64,000 nucleotides of DNA, taken from the sequence record MK327931.1; one strand, given 5' to 3'. The notes beneath the pieces are model-generated. The model was given only the letters and a program-made list of their open reading frames with translations, had not been told where the DNA came from and ran no database searches. The translations under genes were made by a program, and so were the position numbers. This DNA comes from Escherichia phage vB_EcoM_G17. Positions 13,924 to 36,404 of the stretch are shown here, piece after piece (within the stretch, counting starts at the first letter, position 1; each line of letters begins with the position of its first letter).

Positions 13924-14013
<90 letters not shown>

Positions 14014-14025
14014 AGAAGTAAGATA

Positions 14026-14126
<101 letters not shown>

Positions 14127-14178
14127 GCCAAGAGTCGGCATAGGTGCAGCACTACAAAGTTCTTCAAGCTGCTTGGTA

Positions 14179-14210
<32 letters not shown>

Positions 14211-14211
14211 T

Positions 14212-14268
<57 letters not shown>

Positions 14269-14270
14269 TA

Positions 14271-14398
<128 letters not shown>

Positions 14399-14417
14399 GC
14401 ATACTCGAAGTACCTCT

Positions 14418-14455
<38 letters not shown>

Positions 14456-14456
14456 A

Positions 14457-14821
<365 letters not shown>

Positions 14822-14830
14822 TAATACCCG

Positions 14831-15232
14831 CTAGTAGTTTAAGTCTGCGGCGTTGAATACACCAAGTGAAGTCTTACCACGTAGTTTAGGTGAAAGGACA
14901 TACTTTGTCAATTTCTTTTTACCGTACCAGCGATTGAATTCGTCTTCAGTGACATATGGGTTCTGGAAATCGTATTCGCGTTTCTTATGCAGTTCTTTAG
15001 CACGTTCTGCAATCTTGGTTCGTTGGTCTTCTGGAATGTCGAATGTATTGTTACGTTCACACCATTCGTGCTCTAATGCACCCTGAAGAAACTGTTCGGT
15101 TTCTTTGACTAGAGTGATTTTAGTCAAGCCTTTTTCGATGTTCATATAATCATCGACGTATCCATTCCAAATAACAATCTCTGGATTGCCGTCAATTTCT
15201 TGAAGCATTTTGATCAAGTCATTCTTTTTCAT
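14831..15232 (-). CDS. hypothetical protein
   Basis: 133-aa ORF. Confidence 0.5.
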   Translation of the reverse strand: MKKNDLIKMLQEIDGNPEIVIWNGYVDDYMNIEKGLTKITLVKETEQFLQGALEHEWCERNNTFDIPEDQRTKIAERAKELHKKREYDFQNPYVTEDEFNRWYGKKKLTKYVLSPKLRGKTSLGVFNAADLNY

Positions 15233-15240
15233 TTAAATTC

Positions 15241-15498
<258 letters not shown>

Positions 15499-15519
15499 TT
15501 ATACCTCTCATTGTTTATG

Positions 15520-15591
<72 letters not shown>

Positions 15592-15595
15592 TAAT

Positions 15596-16203
<608 letters not shown>

Positions 16204-16254
16204 ATAAACCTCACTATACGTAACTTACACCATATACGTCTGATTGTGGAATTC

Positions 16255-16279
16255 ATTATATCAGTACTGAACTATTTAG

Positions 16280-16283
<4 letters not shown>
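16255..16283 (-). promoter_or_regulatory. sigma-70-type promoter copy B (TTGACT-N17-TATAAT)
   Basis: Consensus -10, near-consensus -35, conserved 17-nt spacer; upstream of gene 15820..16203. Confidence 0.6.
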
Positions 16284-16693
<410 letters not shown>

Positions 16694-16702
16694 CTTTTTT
16701 TT

Positions 16703-16864
<162 letters not shown>

Positions 16865-16868
<4 letters not shown>

Positions 16869-17029
16869 AATCGTACCAGTAGTTCAATTAAGTACATTTC
16901 ATATGCTGGATCGTTGATAAGTTTATCATACAGATGTGGCTCTGAAATGAATTCCCAATGATACTTTAGCCATCTACCGATACCCGAATATCTAAAATTA
17001 ATGTCATTCATCCATTCTTCATGTGTCAT
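16865..17029 (-). CDS. MTHEEWM-family small protein (54 aa)
   Basis: Manual translation MTHEEWMNDINFRYSGIGRWLKYHWEFISEPHLYDKLINDPAYEMYLIELLVRL; tandem with next copy. Confidence 0.5.
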
Positions 17030-17190
17030 AATCGTACCATTATTTCAATAAAGAACCACGGATACACTTCATGATTCATAAGTTTATCGTATTCTGCTGG
17101 GTCTGATATGATTTCCCAATGATACTTTAGCCAACTACCGATACCCGAATATCTAAAATTAATGTCATTCATCCATTCTTCATGCGTCAT
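17026..17190 (-). CDS. MTHEEWM-family small protein (54 aa)
   Basis: Manual translation MTHEEWMNDINFRYSGIGSWLKYHWEIISDPAEYDKLMNHEVYPWFFIEIMVRL; about 75 percent identical to previous copy. Confidence 0.5.
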   Translation of the reverse strand: MTHEEWMNDINFRYSGIGSWLKYHWEIISDPAEYDKLMNHEVYPWFFIEIMVRL

Positions 17191-17213
17191 GGTTTTTAAC
17201 CTTTAATTAAAAT

Positions 17214-17290
17214 TGGCCGAGGTAGAGGGACTTGAACCCCCAACCTAGAGATTAGAATTCTCTTGCACTATCCAATTGTGCTATACCCCG
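17214..17290 (-). tRNA. tRNA-Arg (anticodon UCU)
   Basis: Acceptor CGGGGTA/TACCTCG plus G-CCA, D-arm GCACAATTGGATAGTGC, anticodon stem AGAGA/TCTCT with loop AUUCUAA, T-arm GGGGG-TTCAAGT-CCCTC. Confidence 0.7.
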
Positions 17291-17294
17291 TATT

Positions 17295-17410
<116 letters not shown>

Positions 17411-17443
17411 ATGTTATGTCCCATTATATAATGAATTAATGAT

Positions 17444-17770
17444 TTATGCAAGTGCTTTAGATACACCGACACCAATAATTCCAGTGATATCGATATGGAT
17501 ATTGGCAAGTTGATTACTATCATATGGGTTTGTTTCTGTAATAACCAATGTTGTATCATTGACTAAAACCACAGTACCTTTTACACGATAACCATGTAGT
17601 AGTACTTGAACCTCATCTTCAGGTTTTAATGATTGAATAACTTCAAATAAAGTTGTTTCCATTTTTTGTATTCCTTGTTTAGTTTTGATTATTTGACTTT
17701 CTAAATGCCAGTTCGCATATAAACCAGGGTTTTCTGGTATCCAAAACATATGACCTGAAAAGATTTTCAT
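17444..17770 (-). CDS. hypothetical protein (start uncertain)
   Basis: 108-aa ORF; 5' end overlaps 17679..17879 so an internal Met is the likely start. Confidence 0.4.
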   Translation of the reverse strand: MKIFSGHMFWIPENPGLYANWHLESQIIKTKQGIQKMETTLFEVIQSLKPEDEVQVLLHGYRVKGTVVLVNDTTLVITETNPYDSNQLANIHIDITGIIGVGVSKALA

Positions 17771-17862
17771 CTCTTAATATATCATAATGTACCTGACGAA
17801 TGCCATTCCCAAAGCAGTCATGTTCTTTATGCTGTTTGGACATCCATTCTTCGTGTGTCATT

Positions 17863-17879
<17 letters not shown>
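17679..17879 (-). CDS. MTHEEWM-family small protein
   Basis: Contains MTHEEWMSKQ...WFICELAFRK aligning with other family members. Confidence 0.5.
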
Positions 17880-18198
<319 letters not shown>

Positions 18199-32223: not shown

Positions 32224-32805
32224 TTAGAGAGATTCTTCGTATTCAGCAACAATCTCAACCATTTCATTAATGAACTTGATGTGAGAATGTGTCACTGTAC
32301 GGAAGTCGTAAACAAGTGACTGTTGGAAAAATACATCTTCATCAAGAGAACCATCAAAGTTCAAATCAATGTTTTCATCGTCATTGCTTGGTGCAACTTT
32401 AATATTCAGAAGATTTTCATCAATGAACTTGATGTGAGAATGTGTCACTGTACGGAAGTCGTAAACAAGTGACTGTTGGAAAAATACATCTTCATCAAGA
32501 GAACCATCAAAGTTCAAATCAATGTTTTCATCGTCATTGCTTGGTGCAACTTTAATATTCAGAAGATTTTCATCAACTGCAAGTTTTACAACACAACCCA
32601 GTGCAATGGCAAGAACATATGCTGGTTTCTTAGCTTTTTCATTACGGAATGGTGCACGTAGAGCACAAAAAGTACTGCTAATCTCATCATTTGGTTCTTT
32701 GTATTTAACATTGACCATTAGTTCTTCGATTTTGACGCTCTCAATAACACGACCAGTTTCTGGAGCGAAGAAAGAATGTTCACGGATAGTTTGTTCGATA
32801 TTCAT
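32224..32805 (-). CDS. EE-x-FFQ motif family paralog carrying an internal 51-aa tandem duplication
   Basis: Motif LDEDVFFQQSLVYDFRTVTHSHIKFI occurs twice because of a perfect 153-bp direct repeat. Confidence 0.55.
   Translation of the reverse strand: MNIEQTIREHSFFAPETGRVIESVKIEELMVNVKYKEPNDEISSTFCALRAPFRNEKAKKPAYVLAIALGCVVKLAVDENLLNIKVAPSNDDENIDLNFDGSLDEDVFFQQSLVYDFRTVTHSHIKFIDENLLNIKVAPSNDDENIDLNFDGSLDEDVFFQQSLVYDFRTVTHSHIKFINEMVEIVAEYEESL
32271..32576. repeat. perfect 2 x 153-bp tandem direct repeat, in frame within a CDS
   Basis: Identical sequence read at about 32271..32423 and 32424..32576 (repeat phase arbitrary). Confidence 0.85.
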
Positions 32806-33754: not shown

Positions 33755-33987
33755 TCTTTATCACCTTTTACATAATTATAACACACGACACAGTGAATTA
33801 CAAGAAGAATTATTTCCACAATGTTAAGAGACAATACATGACTCTGCGGTGTGAAAAGTGCCAATAACAACATTATAGCAGGTATTGTGAATATTTTCCA
33901 AGTTTTTTTCATTTTATTCCTTTGTATATGCATATGGTAAAAATAAAACCTCTGCATTAGGAATGCATTGTGCCAATCCTTCAACAA
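33751..33987 (-). CDS. hypothetical small membrane protein
   Basis: 78-aa ORF with two hydrophobic helices. Confidence 0.45.
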   Translation of the reverse strand: MLKDWHNAFLMQRFYFYHMHIQRNKMKKTWKIFTIPAIMLLLALFTPQSHVLSLNIVEIILLVIHCVVCYNYVKGDKE

Positions 33988-34400
33988 TAGATTTGTTTTA
34001 TTACATTGCCAAACTTAGTAATTTTATGTCTAAATACTTTTTTATCAACGACAATCCAGTACATGTCCATTTTAACAGTACTGTTATCAGATGGTGTTAG
34101 TAAAGTATCGATGTCATATGTATCAAAGATTTGTCGTTCATATAATCTCCTAATAAAATATTCTCGATTCTCTCTTATATACCCAGATACACAGTTAGTT
34201 GTGGCTTGGTTAGTGAATGAAATCTCACTATTGGACACGCCATTTGCATCACACAAAGGACATATTCCCATGTACTTGGGGGTCGGGTAGGTGTCCAATT
34301 TGTATTTTTCATTACACACCATGTACTGCTGTGGCAATACATCTAATATTATTTCATATTCTTCATCAAACACCTTGAAGCATACCCAACATTTACCCAT
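33981..34400 (-). CDS. hypothetical Cys-rich (zinc-finger-like) protein
   Basis: 139-aa ORF with CWVC, CNEK, CPLC and CVSG cysteine clusters. Confidence 0.45.
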   Translation of the reverse strand: MGKCWVCFKVFDEEYEIILDVLPQQYMVCNEKYKLDTYPTPKYMGICPLCDANGVSNSEISFTNQATTNCVSGYIRENREYFIRRLYERQIFDTYDIDTLLTPSDNSTVKMDMYWIVVDKKVFRHKITKFGNVIKQIYC

Positions 34401-34626
34401 TATAGTTTTCCTTTAACACCGTTCTTATATATTCGAATGTTTTAACAAACCAATCATGTTCGTCGGATACATCTACAACTTTACCACCATATACATAGTA
34501 ATGGTAAAAAGGTAACTTGCTTTTTCTTAATCTTTCGGCTAACTCTGGATTTTGAATTATCTTAGCACAAATAGCATCTTGAATAATAGAAATACAATCA
34601 TCCGTCATTTCAATTCGATCATGCAT
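34393..34626 (-). CDS. hypothetical protein
   Basis: 77-aa ORF. Confidence 0.4.
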   Translation of the reverse strand: MHDRIEMTDDCISIIQDAICAKIIQNPELAERLRKSKLPFYHYYVYGGKVVDVSDEHDWFVKTFEYIRTVLKENYNG

Positions 34627-34883
34627 ATATTGTTAGCGGCTGCTTTTGCTGCTGCACCAGATACTTTTCTAAGGTCATCATGTTTTTGCCCAGTTAAAAA
34701 CCAAAAGTAAAATGTTTCAACTGAAGGGAACCAACCATATGGTTCAAGTGTGAAGCTATGTGAAGAAAAGTTAGATAGATCTCTACCTAACTTAGTTCTA
34801 GCTTTACTATAAATGTTAATGTGTCGGTATCCATCATCAGTAGGGTCAATAAAGTCAAATGACTCTTCTGGAAACTCAAACAT
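34605..34883 (-). CDS. hypothetical protein
   Basis: 92-aa ORF. Confidence 0.4.
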   Translation of the reverse strand: MFEFPEESFDFIDPTDDGYRHINIYSKARTKLGRDLSNFSSHSFTLEPYGWFPSVETFYFWFLTGQKHDDLRKVSGAAAKAAANNICMIELK

Positions 34884-34885
34884 AA

Positions 34886-35122
34886 TTATTCTTCTTCTCC
34901 TGAAGGAGTTCCACGTAGTTTGTCAAAATCAACCCAAATACCATGCTGATTTTTAAATCTACATTTCTCATAGTACCAGCTATAGTCAGTTTCAACACCT
35001 TGTGATATAGATCTAACACTACAATCATACATATTATATAAATGATCCCTGACAATATACGTATTAATCAGAATAACAAACAATACAATAATACCACAGA
35101 CTTTAGGATGATCCATAATCAA
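34886..35122 (-). CDS. hypothetical small membrane protein
   Basis: 78-aa ORF with N-terminal TM helix. Confidence 0.45.
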   Translation of the reverse strand: MIMDHPKVCGIIVLFVILINTYIVRDHLYNMYDCSVRSISQGVETDYSWYYEKCRFKNQHGIWVDFDKLRGTPSGEEE

Positions 35123-35240
35123 ATCTAGAACGGAACTCGTTTCAGTACTGTCAATTTACTACGACCGATGGCAACAGCTTTCAGTACTGCTAATGATACC
35201 AGTAATGAAATAACAAGAACACTCAAATAAATTAGCATAA

Positions 35241-35821
35241 TTAGACTCCTACACCAAAACGTAAAAGGATGTTATTAACAAACACAAAATCAAATGGAGA
35301 CTTTGGTTCAGATACCGAGTACTGAAAAGTTTCAGCGGAGAAACTTTCCCTATTGTGCCATGTTGATGAATCGATTAGTAATTGTTTATCACCAATTGAC
35401 GTTGAATGTAATGGAAAGTGTGCTGATGAATTTATGGAATACGCATTTAGTTTTCCTTGTTCATCTAATGTGATACTAAGATAATATTTTTTCTCAATAT
35501 CAGGAATAAGTTCTTTTGTATACGAATAGATTGAATCAACCCATTCATCATGTACATTTTCTGCACCAATCAGGTGTCCGAATGATAAATTACGTTTAAC
35601 TGGCTTTGATCCTGGTCGAGTTAGAATGAATTGTTTTGTTAAGTAAAAATTATTATGTTTACTTCAATATTAACATTTTTAAAATTCACAACTTTATCAT
35701 ATACATTTCGAAAAACTGTTATATCCCAAGTACTAATTTCATCCATAATACTTATCACCAGTTCTTCTAGTTCTTGGATAAATGGCAAATCATCCTGATG
35801 AAATCTAGTCATGGTTTTCAT
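35241..35821 (-). pseudogene. gene split by a frameshift (60-aa N-terminal ORF plus about 130-codon start-less ORF)
   Basis: Manual translation finds an open frame 35241..about 35650 with no ATG/GTG/TTG start, abutting ORF 35639..35821 in another frame next to an A/T homopolymer run. Confidence 0.4.
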
Positions 35822-36404
35822 ATACCTTTTTCAAATTCATAATTTCTAGAATGCTGTATTCTTTATCACCAATCAAATCTTCAGTGAATGCAGTGGGGTC
35901 GGCATCGCTATACAACTTACCATTGATGATAACACAACCATTACTAAGATACAATGCACTCATGATCTGTTGTCCTTCTTTCACATTTTGTGCTAGACCT
36001 GTATTTGTTACTACAAATCCATTTGTTGCTAATGATGATGTTAGTTCTGACCATTCAACTGATATTAAGTCGCGATAGTCCTTAGATACTTTTATATTCA
36101 CAATACAAGCAACTCGTTTAATAGGTGGAGTGCTAATCGTGTACATTTGTGGTTGTTGGTAATTAGAGTTGTATGTTTGTGGTGTTTTAACAGCAGTTCC
36201 TGAATTTTGAGTTGATTTGGTAATTACTGGTTCTACACTGGGGACTATTGTTCTTAGTGATATAATACGTCCAGTTTCATCCAATTTAAGGACTAAACGA
36301 TGAGTTTCATCCTCAGAGTAATAGGGAAACAAGCCACCGGAATTCATATTTTGAAGCATTTTAATTAATTCATAAGTATTTTTTAAAAACATAGTACACC
36401 CCAT
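35805..36404 (-). CDS. hypothetical protein
   Basis: 199-aa ORF. Confidence 0.5.
   Translation of the reverse strand: MGCTMFLKNTYELIKMLQNMNSGGLFPYYSEDETHRLVLKLDETGRIISLRTIVPSVEPVITKSTQNSGTAVKTPQTYNSNYQQPQMYTISTPPIKRVACIVNIKVSKDYRDLISVEWSELTSSLATNGFVVTNTGLAQNVKEGQQIMSALYLSNGCVIINGKLYSDADPTAFTEDLIGDKEYSILEIMNLKKVYENHD

What the first reader, a model, noticed from the sequence alone, without database searches (positions are those of the whole stretch)
35241..35821. Gene split by a frameshift next to an A/T homopolymer run
A 60-aa ORF with a proper start (35639..35821) ends at TAA, while an overlapping frame stays open for about 130 further codons with no ATG/GTG/TTG start, ending at 35241. The junction sits at ATAATAATTTTTACTT. 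Pseudogene, sequencing error or programmed frameshift are all possible.
Basis: seen in the sequence. Interest (0 to 1): 0.4.

Follow-up and report, generated by a model that had tools for sequence, protein, structure and literature searches.

The report
Conserved phage gene broken by one-base deletion
A small jumbo-phage gene of unknown function, intact in every relative, is split here because one A is missing from a run of four; this is an ordinary lesion or sequence error, not programmed frameshifting.

Summary
On the minus strand a 60-aa ORF (35821..35639) is followed by a start-less open frame in the -1 phase, running to the stop at 35243..35241.

The cause is one missing base. Every relative reads GAAGTAAAACAT (A4); the window reads GAAGTAAACAT (A3, 35658-35660). 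Putting the A back gives exactly the 193-aa gp270 of Escherichia phage Sharanji (phrog_23860, function unknown). All 33 full-length matches in other phage records and all 19 protein clusters encode one ORF of 190-195 aa.

Nothing supports programmed frameshifting: there is no X XXY YYZ site, no downstream structure, and no conservation of the split.

The lesion is not isolated. The window is otherwise 100% identical to Sharanji over 64 kb, but it has six private single-T deletions within 1.66 kb (33996-35660). These break five consecutive genes. A 153-bp tandem duplication lies at 32262-32576.

I lean to a local sequence or assembly defect (about 0.6) over a real burst of slippage mutations (about 0.35). 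Only reads can decide. Interest is low.

The parts
35241..35821 (-). Whole disrupted gene. It is the ortholog of Sharanji gp270, PBECO4 gp434 and 121Q gp71 (phrog_23860, function unknown). The intact form is 193 aa.
   Evidence: Restoring one A gives a protein identical to Sharanji gp270. The PHROG match has E 3.4e-108 over the full length.
35639..35821 (-). 5' fragment: a 60-aa ORF. It holds 54 native codons, then 6 out-of-frame codons (NIIIFT), then TAA.
35658..35660 (-). The lesion: an A3 run where all relatives have A4 (codon 55, AAA Lys, in GTA AAA CAT).
   Evidence: Alignments. All 13 relatives at >=99% identity carry 6 extra bases over 33900-35700.
35241..35663 (-). 3' fragment: a start-less open frame of 140 codons plus stop, in the -1 phase. 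It encodes native residues 56-193.
35645..35649 (-). It is identical in all relatives and is not the lesion.
35155..35157 (-). Private one-base deletion (A4 to A3 on the coding strand). It splits the gp269 homolog (117 aa) into ORFs of 37 aa and 78 aa.
34630..34631 (-). Private one-base deletion (A3 to A2). It splits the gp268 homolog (163 aa) at codon 85.
34130..34132 (-). Private one-base deletion (A4 to A3) in the gp267/gp266 overlap. It removes the gp267 stop and fuses gp267 to gp266, giving the 139-aa chimeric ORF 33981..34400.
34015..34016 (-). Private one-base deletion (A3 to A2) in the gp266 homolog, codon 43.
33996..33999 (-). Private one-base deletion (A5 to A4) in the gp266 homolog, codon 50.
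32262..32576 (-). Private 153-bp tandem duplication (2.1 copies), in frame. It lengthens the gp261 homolog from 142 to 193 aa. The junction shows 8 of 9 bases of microhomology (TTTCAT.AA).

Best explanation
This is one ordinary gene, not two, and it is not a recoding site. In Asteriusvirus jumbo phages it is a conserved 190-195-aa protein of unknown function (Sharanji gp270, phrog_23860).

In this sequence alone, one A is missing from the A4 run at codon 55 (GTA AAA CAT has become GTA AAC AT.). Translation from the normal ATG therefore leaves the frame after residue 54 and stops six codons later. The remaining 138 native codons sit in the -1 phase with no start codon.

The lesion is one of six private single-base deletions. 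All six are in T3-T5 runs of the + strand, and all lie within 1.66 kb. A private 153-bp tandem duplication lies next to them. The rest of the 64 kb is identical to phage Sharanji.

The most likely origin is a local defect of this particular sequence: a poorly supported or poorly polished stretch, or some other non-biological alteration. In that case the phage makes the normal 193-aa protein.

Shown: the deletion, that it is private, the intact orthologs, the cluster, and the lack of frameshift signals. Inferred: that the cluster is an artefact rather than a real mutation. The confidence of 0.6 applies to the artefact origin. That the split is a private, non-programmed one-base deletion in a normally intact gene I hold at about 0.97.
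For: - Relatives have A4 and a single ORF at this site.
- tblastn found 33 records besides the window's lineage that match residues 1-193 in one piece, down to 76% identity.
- All 19 clusters found in a 5.8-billion-protein database are 190-195 aa, and EVKHNNFYL across the site is invariant.
- Restoring the A reproduces Sharanji gp270 exactly.
- The A3 version is absent from IMG/VR, JGI metagenomes, GTDB genomes, E. coli complete genomes and PLSDB.
- The window against Sharanji shows 0 differences in the first 32,423 nt. In the rest there are only 6 one-base gaps plus the duplication junction.
- The chance that six uniformly placed events fall within 1,662 nt of 64 kb is about 7e-8.
- All six deletions hit T-runs of 3 or more. 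Such runs make up about 11% of the bases there, so six random hits would have a chance of about 1.6e-6 (my arithmetic from the run counts).
- Six hits among 53 T-runs is about 11% per run. By my estimate from general knowledge, that is far above any replication error rate. It is typical of under-called homopolymers in thinly supported consensus sequence.
- The exact products of the altered ORFs are on no public contig. The intact neighbouring protein is on record only in Sharanji OR545507.1, where gp270 is whole.
- That record was assembled from Illumina NovaSeq reads with SPAdes (PMC11895373).
Against: - A platform-wide homopolymer problem would leave errors across all 64 kb and mainly in the longest runs. 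Here the other 62 kb are perfect. The T6 and T7 runs inside the affected stretch are untouched, while two T3 runs are hit.
- The nearby 153-bp duplication has 8 of 9 bases of junction microhomology, with a chance of about 1e-3 (my estimate). That looks made by a polymerase or by recombination rather than by software.
- All six deletions are on one strand (P about 0.03 from the run counts). A one-strand patch of error-prone synthesis would also give that pattern.
- No reads are available, so the artefact claim is an inference.
Confidence: 0.6

Rival explanations
1. The cluster is real and recent. A single episode of slippage-prone DNA synthesis, such as a repair or recombination-dependent replication patch copied by a low-fidelity polymerase, left six -1 deletions in T-runs on one strand and a microhomology-mediated 153-bp duplication within 3.4 kb. 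This inactivated five dispensable genes of a Sharanji-lineage phage. The gene would then be a fresh pseudogene.
For: - All changes belong to the slippage class. Six of six deletions are in homopolymers and on one strand.
- The duplication junction has 8 of 9 bases of microhomology.
- The duplication is in frame.
- The affected genes are small lineage-specific ORFs with no Pfam family, and so plausibly dispensable.
Against: - About 11% of the T-runs in the stretch were hit while there are no substitutions in 64 kb. By my estimate from general knowledge, that is orders of magnitude above known frameshift rates, even for error-prone polymerases.
- Three hits fall in one gene (gp266) and five adjacent genes are hit, which selection does not need.
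- The longest runs (T6, T7) were spared.
- No public assembly carries any of the altered products.
Confidence: 0.35
2. Programmed -1 ribosomal frameshifting or transcriptional slippage joins the 60-aa ORF to the downstream frame to make a fusion protein.
For: - The downstream frame is in the -1 phase.
- A U UUU context (the T5 run) lies inside the 22-nt overlap, so a single-tRNA slip is formally possible.
Against: - No X XXY YYZ heptamer lies in the overlap.
- The 91 nt downstream fold at -7.5 kcal/mol, worse than the shuffle mean (z = +1.09).
- There is no Rfam match.
- The runs are only A3 and T5, too short for transcriptional slippage.
- Every relative encodes one ORF.
- A slip at the T5 run would turn the invariant KHNN into NIII.
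- Five more private frameshifts lie in neighbouring genes, which no recoding signal could explain.
Confidence: 0.02
3. These are two genuine separate genes, with the downstream one starting at a non-canonical codon.
For: In-frame ATT, CTG and ATC codons exist in the downstream frame.
Against: - Both parts align colinearly with one conserved protein.
- The break falls inside the most conserved block.
- No family member is split.
Confidence: 0.01

Closest known systems
Escherichia phage Sharanji gp270 (WNN14551.1), also PBECO4 gp434 and 121Q gp71: phrog_23860, hypothetical protein of Asteriusvirus
   Same: The flanking DNA is 100% identical to Sharanji. With one A restored, the product is identical to gp270 (193 aa). 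The position is the same, between the gp271 and gp269 homologs.
   Different: The window lacks one A of the A4 run at codon 55, so the gene reads as a 60-aa stub plus a start-less remainder.
Homopolymer-length indels: Streisinger slippage mutations, or homopolymer miscalls in sequence assemblies
   Same: It is a single-base loss inside a mononucleotide run. Five more of the same type lie nearby, and intact orthologs exist elsewhere.
   Different: The cluster is confined to 1.66 kb of an otherwise perfect 64 kb. It affects one strand only and spares the longest runs. That pattern is atypical for a platform-wide error and also for independent mutations.
Programmed -1 frameshift sites of phages and bacteria (for example dnaX, or tail assembly chaperone G/GT)
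   Same: Two overlapping frames are in the -1 relation, with a U-rich stretch in the overlap.
   Different: There is no slippery heptamer and no stimulatory structure. The two-frame layout is not conserved, and relatives encode a single ORF.

Membership tests
Programmed -1 ribosomal frameshift site | Slippery heptamer X XXY YYZ in the zero frame within the overlap of the two ORFs | tested here: not met
   All in-frame heptamers across the overlap (starting at 35669 down to 35642, minus strand) were listed and none fits. Only a U UUU single-codon context exists.
Programmed -1 ribosomal frameshift site | Stable stem-loop or pseudoknot a few nt downstream of the shift site | tested here: not met
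   The MFE is -7.5 kcal/mol for 35645..35555. The shuffle mean is -10.6, z = +1.09, and 176 of 200 shuffles fold at least as well. There is no Rfam element.
Programmed -1 ribosomal frameshift site | The two-frame arrangement is conserved in relatives | tested here: not met
   In 33 phage records the match covers residues 1-193 in one frame. All 19 protein clusters are 190-195 aa.
Transcriptional slippage or phase-variable homopolymer tract | A long A/T run (about 7-9 or more) whose length varies between isolates | tested here: not met
   The runs are A3 (A4 in relatives) and T5. Run length is invariant in all aligned relatives.
Frameshift-disrupted gene (pseudogene or sequence error) | Orthologs have one continuous ORF, and both fragments align colinearly with it | tested here: met
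Frameshift-disrupted gene (pseudogene or sequence error) | A defined indel relative to orthologs explains the frame change | tested here: met
   A single A is missing at 35658-35660. Restoring it gives the ortholog sequence exactly.
Sequencing or assembly homopolymer error | Several indels of the same kind in homopolymers of the same sequence | tested here: inconclusive
   Six of six private indels are T-run deletions. However, they are confined to 1.66 kb, the T6 and T7 runs are spared, and the other 62 kb are error-free.
Sequencing or assembly homopolymer error | Reads disagree with the consensus, or coverage is low at the site | not testable with these tools
   No reads are available for the window.
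phrog_23860 (Asteriusvirus hypothetical protein) | Full-length significant match to the family profile | tested here: met
   E 3.4e-108, residues 4-193 on profile positions 1-190 of 190, using the A-restored product.

The most novel reading that the evidence does not exclude
The six one-strand -1 deletions and the microhomology duplication are real. They would record a single 'slippage shower': a patch of about 3.4 kb copied by an extremely slippage-prone polymerase during recombination-dependent repair or replication in a jumbo phage. This would be a frameshift counterpart of clustered mutagenesis, caught before any other divergence from the parent genome.
Probability: 0.08. Interest if true: 0.55.

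Novelty: already known. Interest (0 to 1): 0.08.

Why it matters
It matters little for biology. The gene is an ordinary conserved hypothetical gene of Asteriusvirus phages, and the split is a private one-base loss.

The practical value is for annotation. The locus should be annotated as one gene, either disrupted or corrected, and not as a recoding site or as two genes. The same applies to the four neighbouring genes.

Only if reads proved all seven changes real would the tight one-strand cluster of slippage events become an interesting mutational footprint.

Tried and rejected
- **Function of the protein.** Pfam gave no hit for this protein or for six neighbouring proteins in their intact Sharanji form. 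A PDB profile search gave nothing better than E 0.12. AlphaFold2 on the 19-sequence alignment gave an unusable model (mean pLDDT 37, pTM 0.25), so I ran no fold search.
- **Programmed frameshift.** The heptamer scan, the downstream fold and the Rfam search were all negative.
- **Source of the altered version.** The A3 junction is absent from IMG/VR and from GTDB genomes. In the metagenomes the A3-or-A4 pattern gave two 35-nt matches, which is the length of the intact A4 version, so I infer that neither carries A3. The 3.9-kb stretch has no match in E. coli complete genomes or in PLSDB.
- **Exact-product look-ups.** The 60-aa stub, the 139-aa chimera and the 193-aa duplicated protein are not on record.
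- **Shared sequence motif at the six sites.** I read the contexts for something like a methylation motif that could explain systematic miscalls. I saw nothing beyond the A-run itself. All six runs include an in-frame AAA Lys codon, which is expected in an AT-rich coding strand.
- **'NADAR', 'WWE' and 'primase/helicase' labels.** These appear in some relatives' annotations of this stretch. Pfam did not reproduce them on the Sharanji proteins.

Full report
**What is in the sequence**

All genes around the finding lie on the minus strand. The ORF 35821..35639 starts with ATG and overlaps the end of the upstream gene (35805..36404) by 17 nt. It encodes 60 aa and ends with TAA.

A second frame, in the -1 phase relative to the first, opens after a TGA at 35666..35664. 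It stays open for 140 codons (35663..35244) up to TAA 35243..35241. Its only canonical start codon is a GTG 14 codons before the stop. From base composition, a stop-free stretch of that length has a probability of about 7e-6.

**What the window is**

The window comes from an Asteriusvirus jumbo phage of E. coli, the PBECO4/121Q group. It is essentially the genome of Escherichia phage Sharanji (OR545507.1).
- The first 32,423 nt have 0 mismatches and 0 gaps against Sharanji.
- The remaining 31.6 kb differ only by six one-base gaps and one apparent mismatch, which is the junction of a duplication.
- The exact product of the intact neighbouring gene (35805..36404) is on record on a single public contig, Sharanji itself.

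**The cause of the split**

Sharanji, PBECO4, 121Q and phAPEC6 all read GAAGTAAAACATAATAATTTTTAC. The window reads GAAGTAAACATAATAATTTTTAC. One A of an A4 run is missing (window 35658-35660, codon 55, AAA Lys).

It merely lies inside the 22-nt overlap of the two frames.

Restoring the A gives a 193-aa protein identical to Sharanji gp270. In relatives the gene is annotated as one CDS of 573-582 nt.

**Conservation of the intact gene**

- tblastn with the restored protein found 34 phage records. In 33 of them residues 1-193 match in a single piece, down to 76% identity.
- A search of 5.8 billion proteins returned 19 clusters, all 190-195 aa and none split.
- In their alignment the block VNIEVKHNNFYL across the lesion is nearly invariant, and K55, H56, N57 and N58 are fully invariant.
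- The family is phrog_23860, function unknown.
- There is no Pfam family and no PDB relative. The AlphaFold2 model is unusable (pLDDT 37), so the protein's function stays unknown.

**Programmed frameshifting is not supported**

- No X XXY YYZ heptamer lies in the overlap.
- The 91 nt downstream fold more weakly than shuffled sequence (-7.5 kcal/mol, z = +1.09).
- Rfam finds nothing relevant.
- The A3 and T5 runs are too short for transcriptional slippage.
- A -1 slip on U UUU would give ...EVNIIIFYLTK..., replacing four invariant residues.
- The two-frame layout occurs in no relative.

**The lesion is part of a cluster**

Relative to Sharanji, PBECO4 and 121Q, the window lacks one T (on the + strand) in each of six runs:

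| Window run | Run in window | Run in relatives |
|---|---|---|
| 33996-33999 | T4 | T5 |
| 34015-34016 | T2 | T3 |
| 34130-34132 | T3 | T4 |
| 34630-34631 | T2 | T3 |
| 35155-35157 | T3 | T4 |
| 35658-35660 | T3 | T4 |

- Each of the 13 relatives at >=99% identity spans 1807 nt against the window's 1801 over 33900-35700, six bases more. At all six sites the three relatives I aligned (Sharanji, PBECO4, 121Q) keep the full run, so the six deletions appear private to the window.
- They disrupt five consecutive genes, the homologs of Sharanji gp266 (three hits), gp267, gp268, gp269 and gp270.
- The chance that six uniformly placed events fall within 1,662 nt of 64 kb is about 7e-8.
- All six are in T-runs of 3 or more. 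None falls in the 43 A-runs of 3 or more, and none in the T6 and T7 runs of the same stretch.
- About 1.4 kb away, the window has a private 153-bp tandem duplication (32262-32576). It is in frame and lengthens the gp261 homolog from 142 to 193 aa. Its junction shows 8 of 9 bases of microhomology.

**No public copy of the altered version**

- The A3 junction is absent from IMG/VR and from GTDB genomes.
- The only two metagenome matches have the length of the intact A4 version.
- The stretch has no match in E. coli complete genomes or in PLSDB.
- The altered ORF products are on no public contig.

**Artefact or real mutation**

For an artefact:
- About 11% of the T-runs in the stretch are hit, with no substitution anywhere in 64 kb.
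- By my estimate from general knowledge, that density is orders of magnitude above replication slippage rates. It is typical of under-called homopolymers where a consensus is thinly supported.
- The only public genome of this lineage was assembled from Illumina reads (PMC11895373) and has all the genes intact.
- Five adjacent genes are hit, one of them three times, which selection would not require.

For a real event:
- The other 62 kb are flawless.
- The longest runs in the stretch are spared.
- All six hits are on one strand.
- The duplication junction looks polymerase-made.

I put a local defect of this sequence at about 0.6, a genuine recent slippage burst at about 0.35, and recoding at about 0.02. 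Reads or Sanger sequencing across the sites would settle it.

**Verdict**

This is one conserved gene broken by a private one-base deletion. It is an ordinary kind of feature, of low interest, and should not be annotated as a recoding site.

Noticed in passing
window 32262-32576 (ORF 32224..32805, minus strand): A private 153-bp tandem duplication (2.1 copies) absent from Sharanji, PBECO4 and 121Q. It is in frame and repeats 51 aa of the gp261 homolog, lengthening it from 142 to 193 aa. The junction has 8 of 9 bases of microhomology (TTTCAT.AA). The resulting product is on no public contig.
   Followed up: partly
window 33996-33999, 34015-34016, 34130-34132, 34630-34631, 35155-35157: Five further private single-T deletions (A on the coding strand) disrupt the homologs of Sharanji gp266, gp267, gp268 and gp269. 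With the finding's own deletion, all six lie within 1.66 kb of a window otherwise identical to Sharanji. They create a 139-aa gp267-gp266 chimeric ORF (33981..34400) and split gp268 and gp269.
   Followed up: yes
window 13934-18176, minus strand: A cluster of seven phage tRNA genes (Thr-tgt, Asn-gtt, Met-cat, Ser-act, Arg-tct, Ser-tga, Gly-tcc). The Ser tRNA has an unusual ACT anticodon, and the Met tRNA is unusually long at 90 nt. Sharanji's annotation lists the same seven.
   Followed up: no
window 34393-34883 (gp268 homolog) and neighbouring genes: Some relatives' records label genes in this stretch as 'NADAR domain-containing', 'WWE domain-containing' or 'DNA primase/helicase'. Pfam gave no hit at E <= 0.01 for the intact Sharanji gp266-gp269, gp261 or gp271 proteins, so these labels are unconfirmed here.
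   Followed up: partly
Escherichia phage CMSTMSU MH494197.1, about 218603-219073: This is the only relative whose match to the protein is partial (residues 37-193) and falls in two places in the record. That suggests its copy may also be interrupted or misassembled.
   Followed up: no
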